64,000 nucleotides of DNA from Candidatus Bilamarchaeaceae archaeon (GTDB lineage: Archaea; Micrarchaeota; Micrarchaeia; Anstonellales; Bilamarchaeaceae). The notes below the pieces were generated by a model. That model ran no database searches, was not told where the DNA came from, and saw nothing but the letters and a program-made list of their open reading frames with translations. A program made the position numbers and the translations under genes. The stretch lies in assembly GCA_038851325.1 (NCBI GenBank), contig JAWCKZ010000001.1, positions 111,410 through 175,409 of the forward strand, in the 5' to 3' direction. The stretch's first letter is position 1, and every line of letters begins with the position of its first letter. Below are positions 5,240-46,180 of this stretch, one piece after another.

Positions 5240-5950
5240 GTGTACGGTATGACAGAAAAGATAGTCATAAAAGCAGTACAGAAAAAGAACATGAGTCCGC
5301 TTGCGACACTTATGGGAAACCTTGGTTTCACAAAGATATCATACTTAAAGGATACGCTCACAATAGAGAGAGTCACAGGATACGACCTCAACAGAAACCC
5401 AGAACTCGATTATCGTATAGTTTTCAGCCCACAGGAGATAGTGCTGGAATACGAGGTACCTAAGAACAAAAACAAAAAGGCAAGACTTCTAAGCGTTCTT
5501 CCGATATTTCTTAATGTTCTGCAACTAGTTGAGGACTACTATGACATAAAGCCATCAGCAATTTACTTTGAGGTTAACACCGCACTCACTGAAGCCTTAA
5601 AACTTGTTGGAAAAGATGTTGTTGACCTTTCAACAGAGCTGAGCGAGCTCCAGGCGAAATACAGGAGCCTGTCAGCAAAGTATAACGACCTTCTCCGCTC
5701 AAGCGAAGAAAACGCAAGGATTCTTCTTGAGTATGAAAGAAAAAAAGATGAATTAAACAGAAAAGTGGAAAGGCTTACGCGCTACAGTGATGACGCTCTC
5801 AAGGAGATGGTATATGAATGGATAAAATTACATGGTGGAAAGATAAATCTTCTTGAGTTTTCAAAGATACATAGGGTTCCGATACCTCGCCTCGAGGAGA
5901 TATTGAATATGCTCGTTACAGAGGGGTATATAAAAAGGAGGTTTGAATGA
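5240..5950 (+). CDS. coiled-coil protein with a C-terminal winged-helix-like domain, hypothetical partner of the ATPase
   Basis: Overlaps the ATPase stop. Central heptad-like segment (LSTELSELQAKYRSLSAKYNDLLRSSEENARILLEYERKKDELNRKVERL). C-terminal LEFSKIHRVPIPRLEEILNMLVTEGYIKRR resembles a wHTH. Confidence 0.45.
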   Translation: MYGMTEKIVIKAVQKKNMSPLATLMGNLGFTKISYLKDTLTIERVTGYDLNRNPELDYRIVFSPQEIVLEYEVPKNKNKKARLLSVLPIFLNVLQLVEDYYDIKPSAIYFEVNTALTEALKLVGKDVVDLSTELSELQAKYRSLSAKYNDLLRSSEENARILLEYERKKDELNRKVERLTRYSDDALKEMVYEWIKLHGGKINLLEFSKIHRVPIPRLEEILNMLVTEGYIKRRFE

Positions 5951-7399: not shown

Positions 7400-8593
7400 G
7401 TGAAAAGGAACATAGTTATCGAAAGGTCCTCTTACCTACCAGCATACAAGCGCAGGGTTGAACTTGCAGAGCGGAAGGGAGTGGGACACCCGGATACCTT
7501 AATAGACGGTATTATGGAAGAGATAAGCAAAGAGCTCAGTAAAGAATACCTTAATGAATTTGGGGGAATACTTCATCATAACGTAGATAAGGGACAGATA
7601 TGTGGCGGAGCAACAGAGGTAAATTTTGGCGGCGGTGTTTTTACAAAACCTATCTACATTCTTCTTGGCGGTCGTGCAACGGGCGAGGTCGGTGGAAAAA
7701 AGATACCTGTCCAGCATATTGCAGTTGAAACAGCGAAAAGATATCTAAAAAATACTATTAGGCATCTTGACGTAGAGTGTGATGTGGAATTGGAATCAAG
7801 AATCTCGTCTGGCTCTGCTGAACTCATCGATCTATTGATGAGAAAAAGCAGGACCCCACTTGCGAACGACACAAGCTTCGGAATGGGGTTCGCGCCTTTA
7901 GACGAACTGGAGAAGGTTGTACTGAACACTGAAAGGTATCTCAATTCAATTGAATACAAAAAGATTAGGCCATTTGCTGGCGAGGATATAAAGGTAATGG
8001 GTCTAAGACAAGGAAATAAGATAAAACTCACGGTTGCAATCGCCTTTGTCTCGAAATACATATTGGACATAGAAGAGTACTTAGACTGTAAGAGAAAGGT
8101 TCTTGAAGACTTAAGAAGGTTCGTGAAAAAAATAACAAAAATGGATGTTGATATTTACATAAATACGGCAGATGATATAAAGAGAAAATCGATATATATG
8201 ACACTTACTGGAACGAGCGCTGAAATGGGTGACGATGGAAGTGTTGGAAGAGGAAACCGCGCCAATGGCCTCATAACACCATTCAGGGGGATGTCAATCG
8301 AAGCAGCTGCCGGAAAGAATCCGGTAAACCATGTCGGAAAGGTTTACTCTGTGCTTGCTACTAAGATGGCACGTGAGATAGCTGAGGAGTATAAAAGCAT
8401 AGAGGATATAACAGTAGGATTGCTCTCTCAAATAGGGAAGCCCATAGATCAACCGAAGGTTGCAAGTGTTACCTTTGTTTCAAAGGACTTCGAGAAAATA
8501 AAGAGCAAGGTACGATATTTGATCGATAAAGGTCTTGAGGAAGTAACAGAGATTACACCCCTAATAATTTCTGGTAAAATCTCGGTCTTTTAA
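7400..8593 (+). CDS. mat: archaeal-type S-adenosylmethionine synthetase (methionine adenosyltransferase)
   Basis: About 400 aa. N-terminal RNIVIE...ERKGVGHPDTLIDGIMEE matches archaeal MAT (MJ1208 family), not bacterial MetK. Confidence 0.85.
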   Translation: MKRNIVIERSSYLPAYKRRVELAERKGVGHPDTLIDGIMEEISKELSKEYLNEFGGILHHNVDKGQICGGATEVNFGGGVFTKPIYILLGGRATGEVGGKKIPVQHIAVETAKRYLKNTIRHLDVECDVELESRISSGSAELIDLLMRKSRTPLANDTSFGMGFAPLDELEKVVLNTERYLNSIEYKKIRPFAGEDIKVMGLRQGNKIKLTVAIAFVSKYILDIEEYLDCKRKVLEDLRRFVKKITKMDVDIYINTADDIKRKSIYMTLTGTSAEMGDDGSVGRGNRANGLITPFRGMSIEAAAGKNPVNHVGKVYSVLATKMAREIAEEYKSIEDITVGLLSQIGKPIDQPKVASVTFVSKDFEKIKSKVRYLIDKGLEEVTEITPLIISGKISVF

Positions 8594-8689
8594 ACGATTA
8601 AAAACCTTCTTTCTTATATGTTTATCTCGCAGATGTATGGATTTTTAGTTGGAGTGAACGACGATTCGTTCACTGCCTTAACTCCGTTC

Positions 8690-9071
8690 GGGCCTGTAGT
8701 CGAATGCTGGAAGGCCGGCATTGGTTAAGACGTTACCCTGACAAGGCTTTTTGTCTTCGGTGTTTCTGAGGGCAAAAACCCTGGAAAAAGCCCTGAGGTT
8801 TCTCCTCTGGGTGTGTTGGGCTTTTTGTCTTCGGTGTTTCTGAGGGCAAAAACCCTGGAAAAAGCCCTGAGGTTTCTCCTCTGGGTGTGTTGGGCTTTTT
8901 GTCTTCGGTGTTTCTGAGGGCAAAAACCCTGGAAACGGCATTTGGCTCCTAAGCAGGTGCTTATGACCTGAGGATTGTCTCAGGAGCTAAATACCGTTTG
9001 GAAAAAGACTTGAGGAAAACTCCTGTCTTCTGTAACGGTAAAGATTCCCGGTTCGATCCCGGGCGGGCCCA
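8690..9071 (+). tRNA. tRNA-Val (anticodon GAC) with two introns. A roughly 17-nt insertion in the D-loop, and an about 292-nt intron at the anticodon loop that contains a 74-bp tandem repeat.
   Basis: Hand-folded. Acceptor GGGCCUG(8690-8696)/CGGGCCC(9064-9070) with discriminator A. D-stem GUCG, D-loop AA[ugcuggaaggccggcau]UGGUUA. Anticodon stem UUACC(8733-8737)/GGUAA(9037-9041), loop CUGACAA. Perfect T-arm CCCGG-UUCGAUC-CCGGG (9047-9063). No encoded CCA. Confidence 0.6.
8745..8937. repeat. 74-bp tandem repeat, about 2.6 copies, beginning exactly at the predicted start of the tRNA-Val anticodon intron
   Basis: Unit GGCTTTTTGTCTTCGGTGTTTCTGAGGGCAAAAACCCTGGAAAAAGCCCTGAGGTTTCTCCTCTGGGTGTGTTG repeated identically at 8745-8818 and 8819-8892. 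Third copy truncated near 8937. Confidence 0.85.
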
Positions 9072-9159
9072 ATCCTTCATTTGTTTGCAGGAGTGGCGGT
9101 TGGTTTGACATGCGCTTGCTGTCAAAGCCCGCCACTGTCGTAATGTATTTTGCTGCAAC

Positions 9160-9278
9160 AATTGTTTTCGCAGGAGTGGCGGAGTGGTCAAACGCGGCAG
9201 ACTCAAGATCTGAATGTTCCTTTCACGATTGTGTGGTGGGAAATCTGTTGGCCAAGCGCCTACACAGGTTCGAATCCT
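9160..9278 (+). tRNA. tRNA-Leu (anticodon CAA) with an intron of about 35 nt at the canonical anticodon-loop position
   Basis: Acceptor GCAGGAG/CUCCUGC with discriminator A. D-arm GCGG-AGUGGUCAAAC-GCGG. Anticodon loop CUCAAGA. Long variable arm UGGCCAAGCGCCU. T-arm ACAGG-UUCGAAU-CCUGU. AUCUG duplicated (9198-9202 and 9234-9238), consistent with an intron between them. Confidence 0.65.
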
Positions 9279-9319
9279 GTCTCCTGCATCTTTTTATTTT
9301 TATTCCTAGATAAGGAGAC

Positions 9320-10249
9320 ATGCACAGAAAAGTAAGGAAGATAATATACGATATCTCCTCCCTAAAAATACAGGGCGCACGAAATGTGGCAAAGACAGCC
9401 GTTCAAGCGCTTGTGCTCCAGGCTATGCACACAAGAGCGAAAAACCCTACTGCACTTTATAAAGAGATAAAGGCATTGCGGGAAATAATCATATCAGCAA
9501 GACCTACAGAACCCATGACCCGCAACATGACAGAGGAAGCGTGCAATTTCCTTTTAAGCGAATCAAAATCCGGTAAAAGCATCGATGAGGTTATAAAAAA
9601 GTTTATAAAGCAAGGAGAAATCGCCATAAAAAAGATGGATGAAGATGTCAAACGACTCTTTCAATATGGTGCACAACTCATCCCGCAAAACGCAGTTGTA
9701 ATAACGCACTGCCATTCCTCAACCGTAACTGGAATTCTCAAAACAGCAGAAAAAATGCGTAAGGAAATACGTGTTATCGCTTGCGAAACAAGGCCAAGAT
9801 ACCAGGGTAGAATAACCGCAACAGAGCTTGCGGAAGCTGATATAGACGTCACCCTTGTAGTGGATGGGGCGATGAATCTTTATATGAAGAAAGCTGACAT
9901 AGTCCTTGTTGGTGCGGACTCTGTTACATCGCGCGGCGACCTCATAAATAAGGTTGGAACAAGCACGCTCGCACACATCGCAAGGATGCATGACGTCTCA
10001 TTTTATTCTGCAGCAGAGCTTTTCAAATACAGCCCTATGACATTTTATGGTGTCTTGGAAAAAATAGAGGAAAGAGACCCAAATGAGATATGGGAAAAAC
10101 CACCTAAAAATGTTAAGATAAGCAATCCAGCGTTTGATGTTACGGCAGCAAAATATGTCAATGGGTATATAACAGAAGTTGGTGTAATACCGCCTCAAAC
10201 CTTCTTCTCGCTTGCTACTCAAAAACTTGGTATAAAAATATATGGATAA
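9320..10249 (+). CDS. ribose-1,5-bisphosphate isomerase (eIF-2B alpha/beta/delta-like, e2B2 family)
   Basis: eIF2B-related fold and conserved C-terminal region (GADSVTSRGDLINKVGTSTLA). Located immediately upstream of AMP phosphorylase, as in the archaeal AMP salvage pathway. Confidence 0.75.
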   Translation: MHRKVRKIIYDISSLKIQGARNVAKTAVQALVLQAMHTRAKNPTALYKEIKALREIIISARPTEPMTRNMTEEACNFLLSESKSGKSIDEVIKKFIKQGEIAIKKMDEDVKRLFQYGAQLIPQNAVVITHCHSSTVTGILKTAEKMRKEIRVIACETRPRYQGRITATELAEADIDVTLVVDGAMNLYMKKADIVLVGADSVTSRGDLINKVGTSTLAHIARMHDVSFYSAAELFKYSPMTFYGVLEKIEERDPNEIWEKPPKNVKISNPAFDVTAAKYVNGYITEVGVIPPQTFFSLATQKLGIKIYG

Positions 10250-45800: not shown

Positions 45801-46180
45801 CGGGCCCAGAGGGATTTTCACCATCCTGAGAACTATCTCAGGGTTTGGGTAAGCCCTGGCCTTTGCCCTTAAAAGAGTAGCAATAAACACAGTTCATTGC
45901 GCCCCTTGAACGAAACGTCGTTCAAGCGGGAAGCCAAAGGCTTGGGTTTGAACCCTCGACACACGGATTTCAGCCACCCGCTTCTTTTATGAAGGCAAAC
46001 GGTTTTCTTTTCCGATAGCCTACCGTTTTTCTTTTCCAAAAGAAAAGGGGGTGGTAAGAGTCCGTCGCTCTACCATTTCAGGAAACCGTTGACTTAGTTC
46101 ACCTCAGGGCTTTGGGTGAGCGTAAGCCTTTGCCCTAAAAAGGACATAAGTCAAAGGCTTCGAGCTGAGCTATGGGCCCG
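45801..46180 (+). ncRNA. GC-rich structured non-coding locus (candidate ncRNA of about 380 nt). Terminal helix GGGCCCA/UGGGCCC. Two internally homologous domains. Identity unresolved (RNase P-like or other). Strand uncertain.
   Basis: About 55% GC in a roughly 40% GC genome. No ORF. 5' GGGCCCA (45802-45808) complements 3' TGGGCCC (46173-46179). Duplicated element CAGGG(C)TTTGGGT(A/G)AG...GCCTTTGCCCT(T/A)AAAAG, each closed by a distal CAAAGGCTT complement. Confidence 0.4.

What the first reader, a model, noticed from the sequence alone, without database searches (positions are those of the whole stretch)
8690..9071. tRNA-Val gene with a giant (about 290 nt) anticodon intron filled with a 74-bp tandem repeat, plus a second intron in the D-loop
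A 5' half (acceptor, D-arm, anticodon stem and CUGACAA loop at 8690-8744) and a 3' half (GGUAA anticodon strand, variable loop, textbook T-arm, acceptor at 9037-9071) fold into one cloverleaf only if about 292 nt between them are removed. The flanks can pair (GACAAGG with CCUGUC) in a bulge-helix-bulge-like way, which argues for a spliced intron, not a disrupted pseudogene. The inserted sequence starts with 2.6 perfect copies of a 74-bp unit. Archaeal tRNA introns are normally 15-100 nt, so an intron this long carrying tandem repeats is exceptional. A 17-nt palindromic insertion (AAUGCUGG..CCGGCAUU hairpin) also sits in the D-loop at the same position as the D-loop intron of the nearby tRNA-Tyr.
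Basis: seen in the sequence. Interest (0 to 1): 0.72.

Follow-up and report, generated by a model that had tools for sequence, protein, structure and literature searches.

The report
Bloated, repeat-filled intron in archaeal tRNA-Val
A valine tRNA gene of a tiny uncultured archaeon (Micrarchaeota) is split by a small, well-formed intron and by a 292-base intron made mostly of a perfectly repeated 74-base hairpin module whose copy number differs between strains; the large intron lacks the usual cutting signal, so whether it is spliced out is still open.

Summary
Removing 8705-8721 (17 nt, D-loop) and 8744-9035 (292 nt, anticodon loop) from 8690-9071 gives a 73-nt tRNA-Val(GAC) that aligns without gaps to 13 orthologues. 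These lie downstream of metK in other Micrarchaeota. The organism is a Bilamarchaeaceae MAG.

The D-loop intron is a good relaxed bulge-helix-bulge (BHB) intron. It sits at position 15/16, which eight relatives also use.

The large insert sits at canonical 37/38, where relatives carry 16-189 nt BHB introns. It holds 2.6 perfect copies of a 74-nt two-hairpin module, a nested 67-nt palindrome and a degenerate module tail. Related modules occur in the introns of a three-intron tRNA-Lys in the same window, and in intergenic DNA of relatives.

Conspecific MAGs carry 1.6 or 2.6 copies. A second 83-nt array next to tRNA-Leu is also polymorphic.

The central helix has only two G.U pairs of four and h' is negligible, which is no better than chance. 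The neighbour is tRNA-Leu, not Tyr.

Best reading (0.55): a canonical-position intron inflated by duplication and still spliced by a relaxed-specificity endonuclease. Main rival (0.28): an unspliceable, decaying gene.

The parts
8690..9071 (+). tRNA-Val(GAC) gene, positions 1-73, with two intervening sequences; no encoded CCA
   Evidence: ARAGORN gene ends. In-silico spliced product is Val(GAC), 73 nt. Gap-free alignment to 13 orthologues.
8690..8704 (+). Exon 1 (tRNA positions 1-15: acceptor 5' strand, U8 A9, D-stem 5' strand GUCG, A14 A15)
8705..8721 (+). 17-nt D-loop intron at position 15/16 (UGCUGGAAGGCCGGCAU). Relaxed BHB of HBh' type: H = GUCG(8699-8702)/CGGC(8716-8719), bulges AA|U and AU|U, h' GCU/GGC.
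   Evidence: BHB scoring. The same position and architecture occur in L005, L006, L008, L010, L013, L027 and in L038, L040.
8722..8743 (+). Exon 2 (positions 16-37: rest of D-arm, anticodon stem 5' strand UUACC, loop CUGACA with anticodon GAC at 8740-8742)
8744..9035 (+). 292-nt intervening sequence at canonical position 37/38.
   Evidence: Register scan. Loop CUGACAC in intron-less relatives L038 and L040. Orthologous 37/38 introns of 16-189 nt.
8745..8935 (+). Perfect tandem array, 74-nt unit x 2.6. Each unit is two hairpins (GGCUUUUUGUCUUCGG/CUGAGGGCAAAAACC and GCCCUGAGG/CCUCUGGGU).
   Evidence: TRF. Fold. 1.6 copies in L002 and L041, 2.6 in the window and L001.
8933..8999 (+). 67-nt palindromic hairpin nested in the third unit. 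Arms are AAACGGCAUUUGGCUCCU / AGGAGCUAAAUACCGUUU. It is flanked by the direct repeat UGGAAA (8930-8935, 8999-9004). It carries the strain SNPs at 8939, 8970 and 8972.
   Evidence: Sequence. Fold. SNPs. No other copy in the window or loci.
9000..9035 (+). Degenerate tail of a repeat unit (UGGAAAAAGACUUGAGG... versus unit UGGAAAAAGCCCUGAGG...), with a small hairpin at 9005-9029 and the 3' 7-mer CUGUAA(C).
   Evidence: Sequence comparison.
9036..9071 (+). Exon 3 (positions 38-73: C38, anticodon stem 3' strand GGUAA, variable loop AGAUU, T-arm CCCGG-UUCGAUC-CCGGG, acceptor 3' strand, A73)
   Evidence: The segment 9044-9071 (GATTCCCGG...GGGCCCA) is identical in five JGI metagenome contigs.
8652..8675 (+). 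Leader hairpin AGUGAACGACGAUUCGUUCACU upstream of tRNA-Val. The same hairpin core recurs in the tRNA-Lys T-loop intron.
   Evidence: Pattern search: 2 matches against 0.09 expected.
9087..9169 (+). 83-nt unit made of a duplicate of tRNA-Leu positions 1-13 (9087-9099) plus 70 nt. It forms a 1.16-copy array with 9170-9182. The array has 2.16 copies in conspecific MAG L041.
9170..9288 (+). tRNA-Leu(CAA) with a 35-nt canonical intron (9208-9242). Strict BHB: CUCA/UGGG, bulges AG|A and AA|A.
   Evidence: Rfam tRNA 55.3 bits. BHB. Spliced product.

Best explanation
This is the resident, syntenic tRNA-Val(GAC) gene of a Micrarchaeota (Bilamarchaeaceae) genome. It carries two endonuclease-type (BHB-class) introns.

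The small one (17 nt, D-loop 15/16) is a standard relaxed BHB intron inherited within the lineage.

The large one occupies the canonical 37/38 site that relatives also use. It has been inflated to 292 nt at the DNA level by three processes:
(a) acquisition of a ~74-nt two-hairpin module from a family that also populates other tRNA introns, leaders and intergenic spacers in these genomes;
(b) recent tandem duplication of that module by slippage or unequal recombination, which gives perfectly identical copies and strain-to-strain copy-number change;
(c) a nested palindromic insertion.

The pre-tRNA is presumed to be cut at 8743|8744 and 9035|9036 by the lineage's broad-specificity splicing endonuclease (epsilon2 type in Micrarchaeum) and ligated. 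This would give a tRNA with the loop CUGACAC.

Shown: gene identity, intron positions, module family, array polymorphism, and a degenerate BHB.

Inferred: that the large intron is still spliced, and that the repeats arose by DNA slippage.
For: Identity and synteny:
- metK - tRNA-Val - tRNA-Leu - e2b2 order is shared with relatives.
- In-silico splicing yields Val(GAC).
- The exons are intact and align gap-free to 13 orthologues, with compensatory stem changes.

Intron positions in relatives:
- Orthologues carry 37/38 introns of 16, 17, 45, 56, 56, 56 and 189 nt.
- Orthologues carry 15/16 D-loop introns of 34-53 nt.
- The D-loop intron here has H 4/4.
- The bulge dinucleotides CA| and AA| sit exactly where relatives have them.
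- Intron-less relatives with an identical 3' exon have the loop CUGACAC.

Tolerance of a weak central helix in this genome:
- tRNA-Lys(CUU) in this window has three long introns.
- Its anticodon intron also has only 2/4 central pairs.

Module family:
- Alignment A2 and model R1 hit the Val unit, the Lys D-loop and T-loop introns, the L004 T-loop intron, and intergenic sites in L016 and L026.

Array polymorphism:
- 2.6 copies in the window and L001, 1.6 in L002 and L041.
- These sequences are otherwise 99.3-99.9% identical.
- A second array (83 nt) at the same locus is also polymorphic.

Population and literature:
- Both junction regions and all exons are identical in four MAGs plus one Logan contig.
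- ARMAN-2 has 56% disrupted tRNA genes, and its epsilon2 endonuclease cuts both strict and relaxed motifs (PMC3239211, PMC12397907).
Against: - The large intron has no convincing BHB. The central helix CUGA/CUGU gives A.C, G.U, U.G and C.U, and h' is only two G.U pairs.
- Two or more of four pairs is expected by chance about half the time (my calculation, with G.U allowed).
- Relaxed substrates tested in the literature (hBH/HBh') still have a 4-bp H.
- Every orthologous anticodon intron has 3-4 pairs.
- The minimum-free-energy fold uses a competing helix, CGUUAC(8731-8736)/GUAACG(9032-9037), instead of the anticodon stem.
- The intron begins with a T5 tract repeated three times. In archaea this could terminate transcription (general knowledge).
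- The four MAGs are too similar (at least 99.3%) for exon conservation to demonstrate purifying selection.
- I could not search the rest of the genome for a second tRNA-Val(GAC).
Confidence: 0.55

Rival explanations
1. Insertion-disrupted, decaying gene. The anticodon-loop insert can no longer be excised because the 3' half of the BHB has been lost. The locus would then be a recent pseudogene that accumulates duplications and palindromic insertions neutrally. Valine GUY decoding would be supplied by another gene elsewhere in the genome.
For: - The BHB is no better than chance, whereas all orthologues keep 3-4 of 4 central pairs.
- The interior evolves freely. SNPs create and destroy hairpin pairs (8939 C/T; 8970 and 8972 G/A) and copy number varies.
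- A competing helix dominates the MFE fold.
- The intron flanks form weak direct repeats, CUGACA / CUGUAA (about p = 0.04 by my calculation). This hints at a duplication-type insertion rather than a classical intron.
Against: - The exons and the D-loop intron BHB are flawless.
- The gene is the conserved syntenic copy.
- Small DPANN genomes usually carry one gene per anticodon (general knowledge).
- No second Val gene lies in the 64-kb window.
- The diverged 3' module tail suggests the insert is not brand new, yet the exons show no damage.
- The allele is fixed in four MAGs.
Confidence: 0.28
2. The intron is kept because the repeated module is itself a functional RNA released by splicing, for example a guide or regulatory small RNA. 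This would be analogous to the box C/D RNA in the archaeal tRNA-Trp intron. Copy number would tune its dosage.
For: - The module family recurs in several introns and spacers, with a conserved helix CUNAGGGC/GCCCUNAG.
- The tandem copies can pair across units into a BHB-shaped motif: h 8 bp, H GUGU/GUGU, 3-nt bulges, h' 8 bp. This motif would release exactly one 74-nt unit (8766-8839).
Against: - No Rfam family matches. The best hits are non-significant miRNA-like artefacts of the hairpins.
- There is no C box (UGAUGA) in the intron.
- Only one covarying pair supports the conserved helix.
- The module also lies in intergenic DNA, like a generic palindromic repeat.
- Perfect copy identity and presence/absence polymorphism look like neutral slippage.
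Confidence: 0.1
3. Self-splicing (group I or group II) intron or other ribozyme in the anticodon loop, as in bacterial tRNA genes.
For: The size (about 290 nt) and the anticodon-loop location resemble small bacterial tRNA group I introns. Group I introns do exist in Micrarchaeota rRNA genes (PMC6125680).
Against: - No group I or II hit even at E <= 10.
- Two thirds of the insert is a perfect tandem repeat of simple hairpins.
- All 39 archaeal group I introns reported are in rRNA genes (PMC6125680).
Confidence: 0.01
4. The copy-number differences, and possibly the copy number itself, are short-read assembly artefacts. The true array may be longer or uniform.
For: All sources are metagenome-assembled contigs. 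A 191-bp perfect array is near read length. L002 is a short 3.5-kb contig.
Against: - Two independent assemblies support each state: 2.6 in the window and L001, 1.6 in L002 and L041.
- The states co-vary with linked SNPs.
- The array and its junctions are identical in all of them.
Confidence: 0.15

Closest known systems
Archaeal BHB tRNA introns at the canonical 37/38 position, spliced by EndA and RtcB
   Same: The site is the same as in orthologous tRNA-Val genes. The 3-nt bulge positions (CA|N ... AA|N) lie next to an intact anticodon stem. The exons fold into a normal cloverleaf once the insert is removed.
   Different: Length is 292 nt against the published range of 11-129 nt (PMC4090602). 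The content is a perfect, polymorphic tandem array. The central 4-bp helix is degenerate (two G.U pairs) and h' is negligible, so the defining BHB is not met.
Highly disrupted tRNA genes of Candidatus Micrarchaeum (ARMAN-2) and its epsilon2 splicing endonuclease (Fujishima et al. 2011, PMC3239211; PMC12397907)
   Same: Same phylum. Multiple and non-canonical introns per tRNA. Relaxed HBh'/hBH motifs; the D-loop intron here is of this kind.
   Different: ARMAN-2 introns that were tested are short (13-25 nt) and retain a 4-bp H. No repeat-filled or >130-nt introns were described there. The endonuclease type of this MAG was not determined.
Large-scale tRNA intron transposition in Thermoproteales (Fujishima et al. 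2010, cited in PMC3239211 and PMC4033280)
   Same: Related intron sequences appear at different positions and in different tRNA genes of one genome. Here these are the Val anticodon intron and the Lys D-loop and T-loop introns.
   Different: Here the shared piece is an internal hairpin module, not the whole intron. It also occurs in leaders and intergenic DNA, and it is tandemly amplified inside one intron.
tRNA gene heterogeneity and 5' tRNA fragments in a Caldiarchaeum population (Sugahara et al. 2012, PMC3293823)
   Same: Population-level structural polymorphism at a tRNA locus. A duplicated 5' fragment of a tRNA lies upstream of the full gene, as with tRNA-Leu 9087-9099.
   Different: No 1.8-kb recombinase-bearing element is involved. 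The variation here is copy number of 74- and 83-nt tandem units.
Box C/D RNA-bearing tRNA-Trp intron of Euryarchaeota
   Same: A long tRNA intron that hosts an extra structured RNA element.
   Different: There is no C box and no Rfam C/D hit. The element is repeated and polymorphic.

Membership tests
Archaeal BHB (EndA-type) tRNA intron: the 292-nt anticodon-loop insert | Interrupts a tRNA whose exons form a canonical cloverleaf once the insert is removed | tested here: met
   ARAGORN calls Val(GAC), 73 nt, after in-silico removal. Gap-free alignment to 13 orthologues.
Archaeal BHB (EndA-type) tRNA intron: the 292-nt anticodon-loop insert | Strict hBHBh' motif: two 3-nt bulges separated by a 4-bp helix, flanked by helices h and h' | tested here: not met
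   The best register is 37/38: H = CUGA/CUGU (x||x, two G.U pairs), h = 5, h' = 2 (both G.U). All 16 other registers are worse.
Archaeal BHB (EndA-type) tRNA intron: the 292-nt anticodon-loop insert | Relaxed motif (hBH/BHL or HBh') with at least one bulge closed by a 4-bp H | tested here: inconclusive
   h (5 bp) and the bulge positions are correct, but H is not closed at either end. An HBh'-like alternative exists for the 5' site only: CUGA/UCAG(8980-8983) plus GGC/GUC, with about 6% chance expectation. No equivalent exists for the 3' site.
Archaeal BHB (EndA-type) tRNA intron: the 292-nt anticodon-loop insert | Orthologous genes carry introns at the same position | tested here: met
   L005, L009, L011, L031, L032, L033 and L034 carry 37/38 introns of 16-189 nt with H 3/4 to 4/4.
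Archaeal BHB (EndA-type) tRNA intron: the 292-nt anticodon-loop insert | Spliced tRNA and excised or circular intron detectable in RNA | not testable with these tools
   No transcriptome data are accessible.
Non-canonical BHB intron (D-loop 15/16): the 17-nt insert | 3-nt bulges flanking a 4-bp helix; relaxed HBh' form allowed | tested here: met
   H = GUCG/CGGC 4/4, bulges AA|U and AU|U, h' 3 bp, h absent.
Non-canonical BHB intron (D-loop 15/16): the 17-nt insert | Position and architecture conserved in related genomes | tested here: met
   L005, L006, L008, L010, L013 and L027 all use the D-stem 5' strand as H, 4/4. L038 and L040 do the same.
Group I / group II self-splicing intron | Match to the catalytic-core covariance models | tested here: not met
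   No Intron_gpI or group-II hit at E <= 10 in 8300-9500, nor at E <= 0.5 in the whole window.
Intron-encoded box C/D small RNA (tRNA-Trp type) | C box (RUGAUGA) and D box (CUGA) forming a K-turn, with guide regions | tested here: not met
   No UGAUGA in 8744-9035; there are six CUGA only. No C/D family hit inside the intron.
MITE-like mobile element: the 67-nt palindrome 8933-8999 | Terminal inverted repeats, target-site duplication, and multiple genomic copies | tested here: inconclusive
   18-nt inverted arms and the flanking UGGAAA repeat are present. No second copy was found in the 64-kb window, in 40 related loci, or in viral contigs.
tRNA pseudogene | Damaged exons, or a functional paralogue elsewhere | tested here: inconclusive
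   The exons are undamaged. No paralogue lies in the window. The rest of the genome could not be searched.

The most novel reading that the evidence does not exclude
The 292-nt intron is efficiently spliced even though it lacks a base-paired BHB central helix. The same would hold for the 86-nt anticodon intron of tRNA-Lys in this genome. This would mean the endonuclease of this Micrarchaeota lineage locates canonical-position splice sites from the mature tRNA body or anticodon stem, in a eukaryote-like 'ruler' mode, rather than from the BHB. Freed from structural constraint, anticodon-loop introns would then become safe harbours where small hairpin modules insert and amplify into minisatellites.
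Probability: 0.12. Interest if true: 0.75.

Novelty: new variant of a known kind. Interest (0 to 1): 0.45.

Why it matters
If spliced, this is the longest archaeal tRNA intron I could find documented. It is more than twice the published 129-nt maximum. It is also the first I found that consists of a strain-polymorphic tandem array.

It would be a natural substrate that tests how little bulge-helix-bulge structure a DPANN splicing endonuclease needs. It shows introns, leaders and spacers of tRNA genes in these reduced genomes exchanging small hairpin modules.

If it is not spliced, it captures a syntenic, normally essential tRNA gene at the moment of inactivation. That would imply an unrecognised back-up for GUY decoding.

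In practical terms, standard tRNA finders miss such genes. Rfam and default ARAGORN found neither this Val gene nor the three-intron Lys gene. tRNA complements of Micrarchaeota MAGs are therefore under-called.

Tried and rejected
- Strict and relaxed BHB scans over all registers and over the whole locus. With G.U allowed, many chance motifs appear, and none yields a valid tRNA apart from the weak 37/38 register.
- Two-step or nested splicing. One idea removed 8759-9011 through an hBH-like motif. Another removed 8984-9033 to bring UCAG(8980-8983) next to AA|C. The inner 'introns' have no BHB of their own, and UCAG is part of the palindrome's arm. Rejected.
- Reading the 3' 7-mer CUGUAAC as a Tyr (GUA) anticodon loop. 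The body has G1-C72 and orthologues are all Val. That register has no BHB. Rejected.
- Base-pair probabilities of the central helix from ViennaRNA. They are near zero even for textbook BHBs in relatives, so they are uninformative.
- Coding potential. The ORFs overlapping the locus have no Pfam hits, and the 74-nt period is not a multiple of 3.
- Mobile-element context. There is no integrase or transposase in the 8 kb upstream; the genes are an AlaX-like protein, a GMP synthase C-terminal domain protein, HerA, PurD and MetK.
- Viral origin. Exact 23-25-mers of the unit, the palindrome and the Leu insert are absent from IMG/VR.
- Bacterial-type promoter/terminator scan. Nothing useful, and it is not applicable to archaea.
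It returned relatives but no further allele of this species.
- The species is known only from four NCBI MAGs and one Logan contig. The nearest metK relatives are about 70% identical, so no intermediate-distance genome exists to test covariation at the junctions.
Full report
WHAT IS THERE

The window comes from an archaeon. The genes flanking the finding are:
- an archaeal-type S-adenosylmethionine synthetase (7400-8593);
- PurD;
- a ribose-1,5-bisphosphate isomerase-like IF-2B family protein;
- an AMP phosphorylase-like protein.

The exact MetK protein is annotated by NCBI as 'Candidatus Bilamarchaeaceae archaeon'. The nearest other MetK sequences are about 70% identical and come from Micrarchaeota MAGs.

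Default ARAGORN finds no tRNA in the 64 kb. Rfam finds only one, at 9170-9288. With introns allowed, ARAGORN places a gene at exactly 8690-9071 but misfolds it.

Removing 8705-8721 and either 8744-9035 or 8745-9036 in silico gives a 73-nt tRNA-Val(GAC). Leaving the D-loop insert in gives nothing.

Tandem Repeats Finder confirms 2.6 perfect copies of a 74-nt unit at 8745-8935.

ORTHOLOGUES

A tRNA-Val gene follows metK in many Micrarchaeota, and in the closest loci tRNA-Leu(CAA) follows it, as it does here. I fetched these loci with the search for related loci and the look-up of encoding contigs. These genes form a natural series:
- No intron: L007, L012, L030.
- D-loop intron only: L006, L008, L010, L013, L027. 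The metagenomic loci L038 and L040 are also of this kind.
- Anticodon intron only: L011 (56 nt), L009 (189 nt), L031-L034 (16-56 nt).
- T-loop intron: L004.
- Three introns: L005.

The spliced window sequence aligns without gaps to 13 of them, and stem differences are compensatory. The locus is therefore the resident tRNA-Val(GAC). It is not a stray fragment.

THE D-LOOP INTRON

I used the BHB geometry that the orthologous introns themselves validate. On the 5' strand this is h, then H (4 nt), then a bulge cut after its second nucleotide, then h'. On the 3' strand it is h', H, bulge, h.

The window's D-loop insert resolves as a 17-nt intron at 8705-8721. H is GUCG/CGGC (4/4), the bulges are AA|U and AU|U, and h' is 3 bp.

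Eight other loci have an intron at the same 15/16 position, 34-53 nt long. Each uses the D-stem 5' strand as H, with 4/4 pairs. This is a bona fide relaxed (HBh') intron. The type is known from Micrarchaeum (ARMAN-2), whose epsilon2 endonuclease cuts both strict and relaxed motifs (PMC3239211).

THE LARGE INSERT: POSITION AND SPLICING SIGNAL

The only register with correct geometry is canonical 37/38. Exon 2 ends at A8743 and exon 3 starts at C9036. This gives the loop CUGACAC.

That loop is exactly what two metagenomic tRNA-Val(GAC) genes have. Those genes share an identical 3' exon and have no anticodon intron.

The bulge dinucleotides (CA| and AA|) sit where relatives have them. The central helix, however, is CUGA/CUGU, which gives A.C, G.U, U.G and C.U. 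The helix h' is two G.U pairs.

With G.U allowed, at least 2 of 4 pairs is expected by chance about half the time (my calculation). The signal is therefore no better than random. By contrast:
- five orthologous anticodon introns score 4/4 and two score 3/4;
- the neighbouring tRNA-Leu intron is a strict BHB.

It leaves a 2 x 9 internal loop beside the anticodon stem and a single bulged A, so it is not a BHB.

The unconstrained MFE fold uses a competing helix, CGUUAC/GUAACG, in place of the anticodon stem.

One mitigating fact comes from a second, previously undetected gene in the window. tRNA-Lys(CUU) lies on the minus strand at 46179-45801 and is confirmed by in-silico splicing. It has three introns:
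- D-loop, 87 nt, H 4/4;
- anticodon, 86 nt, H only 2/4 but with strong h and h';
- T-loop, 132 nt, H 4/4.

Weak central helices in anticodon-loop introns may therefore be tolerated in this organism.

WHAT THE INSERT IS MADE OF

Each 74-nt unit is two hairpins. After 2.6 units the array is interrupted by a 67-nt palindrome (8933-8999), flanked by a UGGAAA direct repeat. The insert then ends with a diverged copy of the unit's second half.

The unit belongs to a small family:
- nhmmer, an alignment (A2) and a covariance model (R1) link it to the D-loop and T-loop introns of tRNA-Lys in the same window;
- they also link it to the T-loop intron of L004;
- they also link it to intergenic sites in L016 and L026.

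A further hairpin (GAACGACGNUUCGUUC) is shared by the Val leader and the Lys T-loop intron, with 2 matches against 0.09 expected.

Only one covarying pair supports the family's consensus helix. No Rfam family, C box or catalytic intron core matches. I read these as generic palindromic modules, not as a dedicated functional RNA.

Because hairpin 1 has a 7-nt loop beginning with the wobble-self-complementary GUGU, neighbouring units can pair into a BHB-shaped motif. That motif would excise exactly one unit. This is curious, but it is explicable by chance.

POPULATION VARIATION

Four conspecific MAG contigs and one Logan contig, 99.3-99.9% identical, share the gene, both junctions and all exons.

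The 74-nt array has 2.6 copies in two of them and 1.6 in the other two. Intron SNPs both repair and break hairpin pairs.

The same locus holds a second array. The first 13 nt of tRNA-Leu plus 70 nt upstream (9087-9169) form an 83-nt unit. It is present 1.16 times here and 2.16 times in L041.

This points to ordinary DNA-level slippage or unequal recombination between repeats in tRNA-flanking non-coding DNA. Assembly collapse cannot be fully excluded. However, each state is seen in two assemblies and is linked to SNPs.

VERDICT

The gene identity, the two interruptions, the repeat and the D-loop intron stand. The 'BHB-like' argument for splicing of the large insert does not.

I consider it most likely (0.55) that this is a canonical-position intron, bloated by module acquisition and tandem duplication, and still removed by a broad-specificity endonuclease. 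My reasons:
- the exons and the second intron are flawless;
- the gene is the conserved syntenic copy;
- the allele is fixed in the species;
- another tRNA in the same genome tolerates a weak central helix.

The main rival (0.28) is a recently crippled gene.

At 292 nt the insert exceeds the published 11-129 nt range for archaeal tRNA introns (PMC4090602). My literature searches found no report of tandem repeats in archaeal tRNA introns.

Two facts temper the claim. Long introns are a lineage trait: 189 nt in L009, and 132 nt in the tRNA-Lys here. Heavy tRNA disruption in Micrarchaeota has been known since 2011. I therefore rate it a new variant of a known kind, of moderate interest.

Noticed in passing
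window 46179-45801 (minus strand): An undetected tRNA-Lys(CUU) with three long introns: D-loop 46162-46076 (87 nt), anticodon 46054-45969 (86 nt, central helix only 2/4), and T-loop 45946-45815 (132 nt). Rfam and default ARAGORN miss it. In-silico splicing gives a clean 74-nt tRNA-Lys. Its D-loop and T-loop introns share an 80%-identical 35-nt segment with each other and the module with the Val intron.
   Followed up: yes
window 9087-9182; L041 4687-4860 approx.: The first 13 nt of tRNA-Leu (GCAGGAGTGGCGG) are duplicated 83 nt upstream of the gene. The 83-nt unit is tandemly duplicated once more in conspecific MAG L041 (2.16 versus 1.16 copies). The upstream fragment is followed by a BHB-shaped motif (GCGG/CCGC, bulges UU|G and CA|C) that resembles a D-loop intron. 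In relatives tRNA-Leu starts 12 nt after tRNA-Val, which is roughly where the fragment sits here.
   Followed up: partly
L038 3697-3864: Another Micrarchaeota contig carries a perfect 74-bp x 2.3 tandem array about 40 nt downstream of its tRNA-Val(GAC). The period is the same but the sequence is unrelated. L021 (65 bp x 3.2) and L029 (108 bp x 2.0) also carry near-perfect arrays. Short perfect minisatellites may be a lineage habit.
   Followed up: partly
L009 5837-6025: A 189-nt anticodon-loop intron lies in the orthologous tRNA-Val(GAC) of another Micrarchaeota MAG (H 3/4). It is also beyond the published 129-nt maximum. It is built of several hairpins with CUUUUAGGAAAAG-type palindromes at both ends.
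   Followed up: partly
L008, L010, L011, L013, L027, L036 (tRNA-Val introns): A recurring palindrome-plus-tail motif, (G)CGCUUUUUGGGAAAAAGCG(C)-CCAAAAAC(C), opens introns at different positions (D-loop or anticodon loop) in different Micrarchaeota. This suggests intron sequences move between sites or are recruited repeatedly.
   Followed up: no
L005 5398-5439 and its T-loop intron (about 5525-5565): The D-loop and T-loop introns of one tRNA-Val gene share nearly the same sequence (CUUUGAACUGGCGUUCAAAAUUCGCC...). A partial copy of the tRNA 5' end lies about 60 nt upstream of the gene.
   Followed up: no
window 8656-8671 and 45908-45923: The identical 16-nt hairpin core GAACGACG(A/T)TTCGTTC occurs in the tRNA-Val 5' leader and inside the tRNA-Lys T-loop intron (2 matches against 0.09 expected).
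   Followed up: partly
window 8765-8840 and 8839-8914: Adjacent repeat units can pair across units into a BHB-shaped motif (h 8 bp, H GUGU/GUGU all wobble, bulges UU|C, h' 8 bp). Its cut sites are exactly 74 nt apart. If the endonuclease used it, single units would be excised from the RNA.
   Followed up: no
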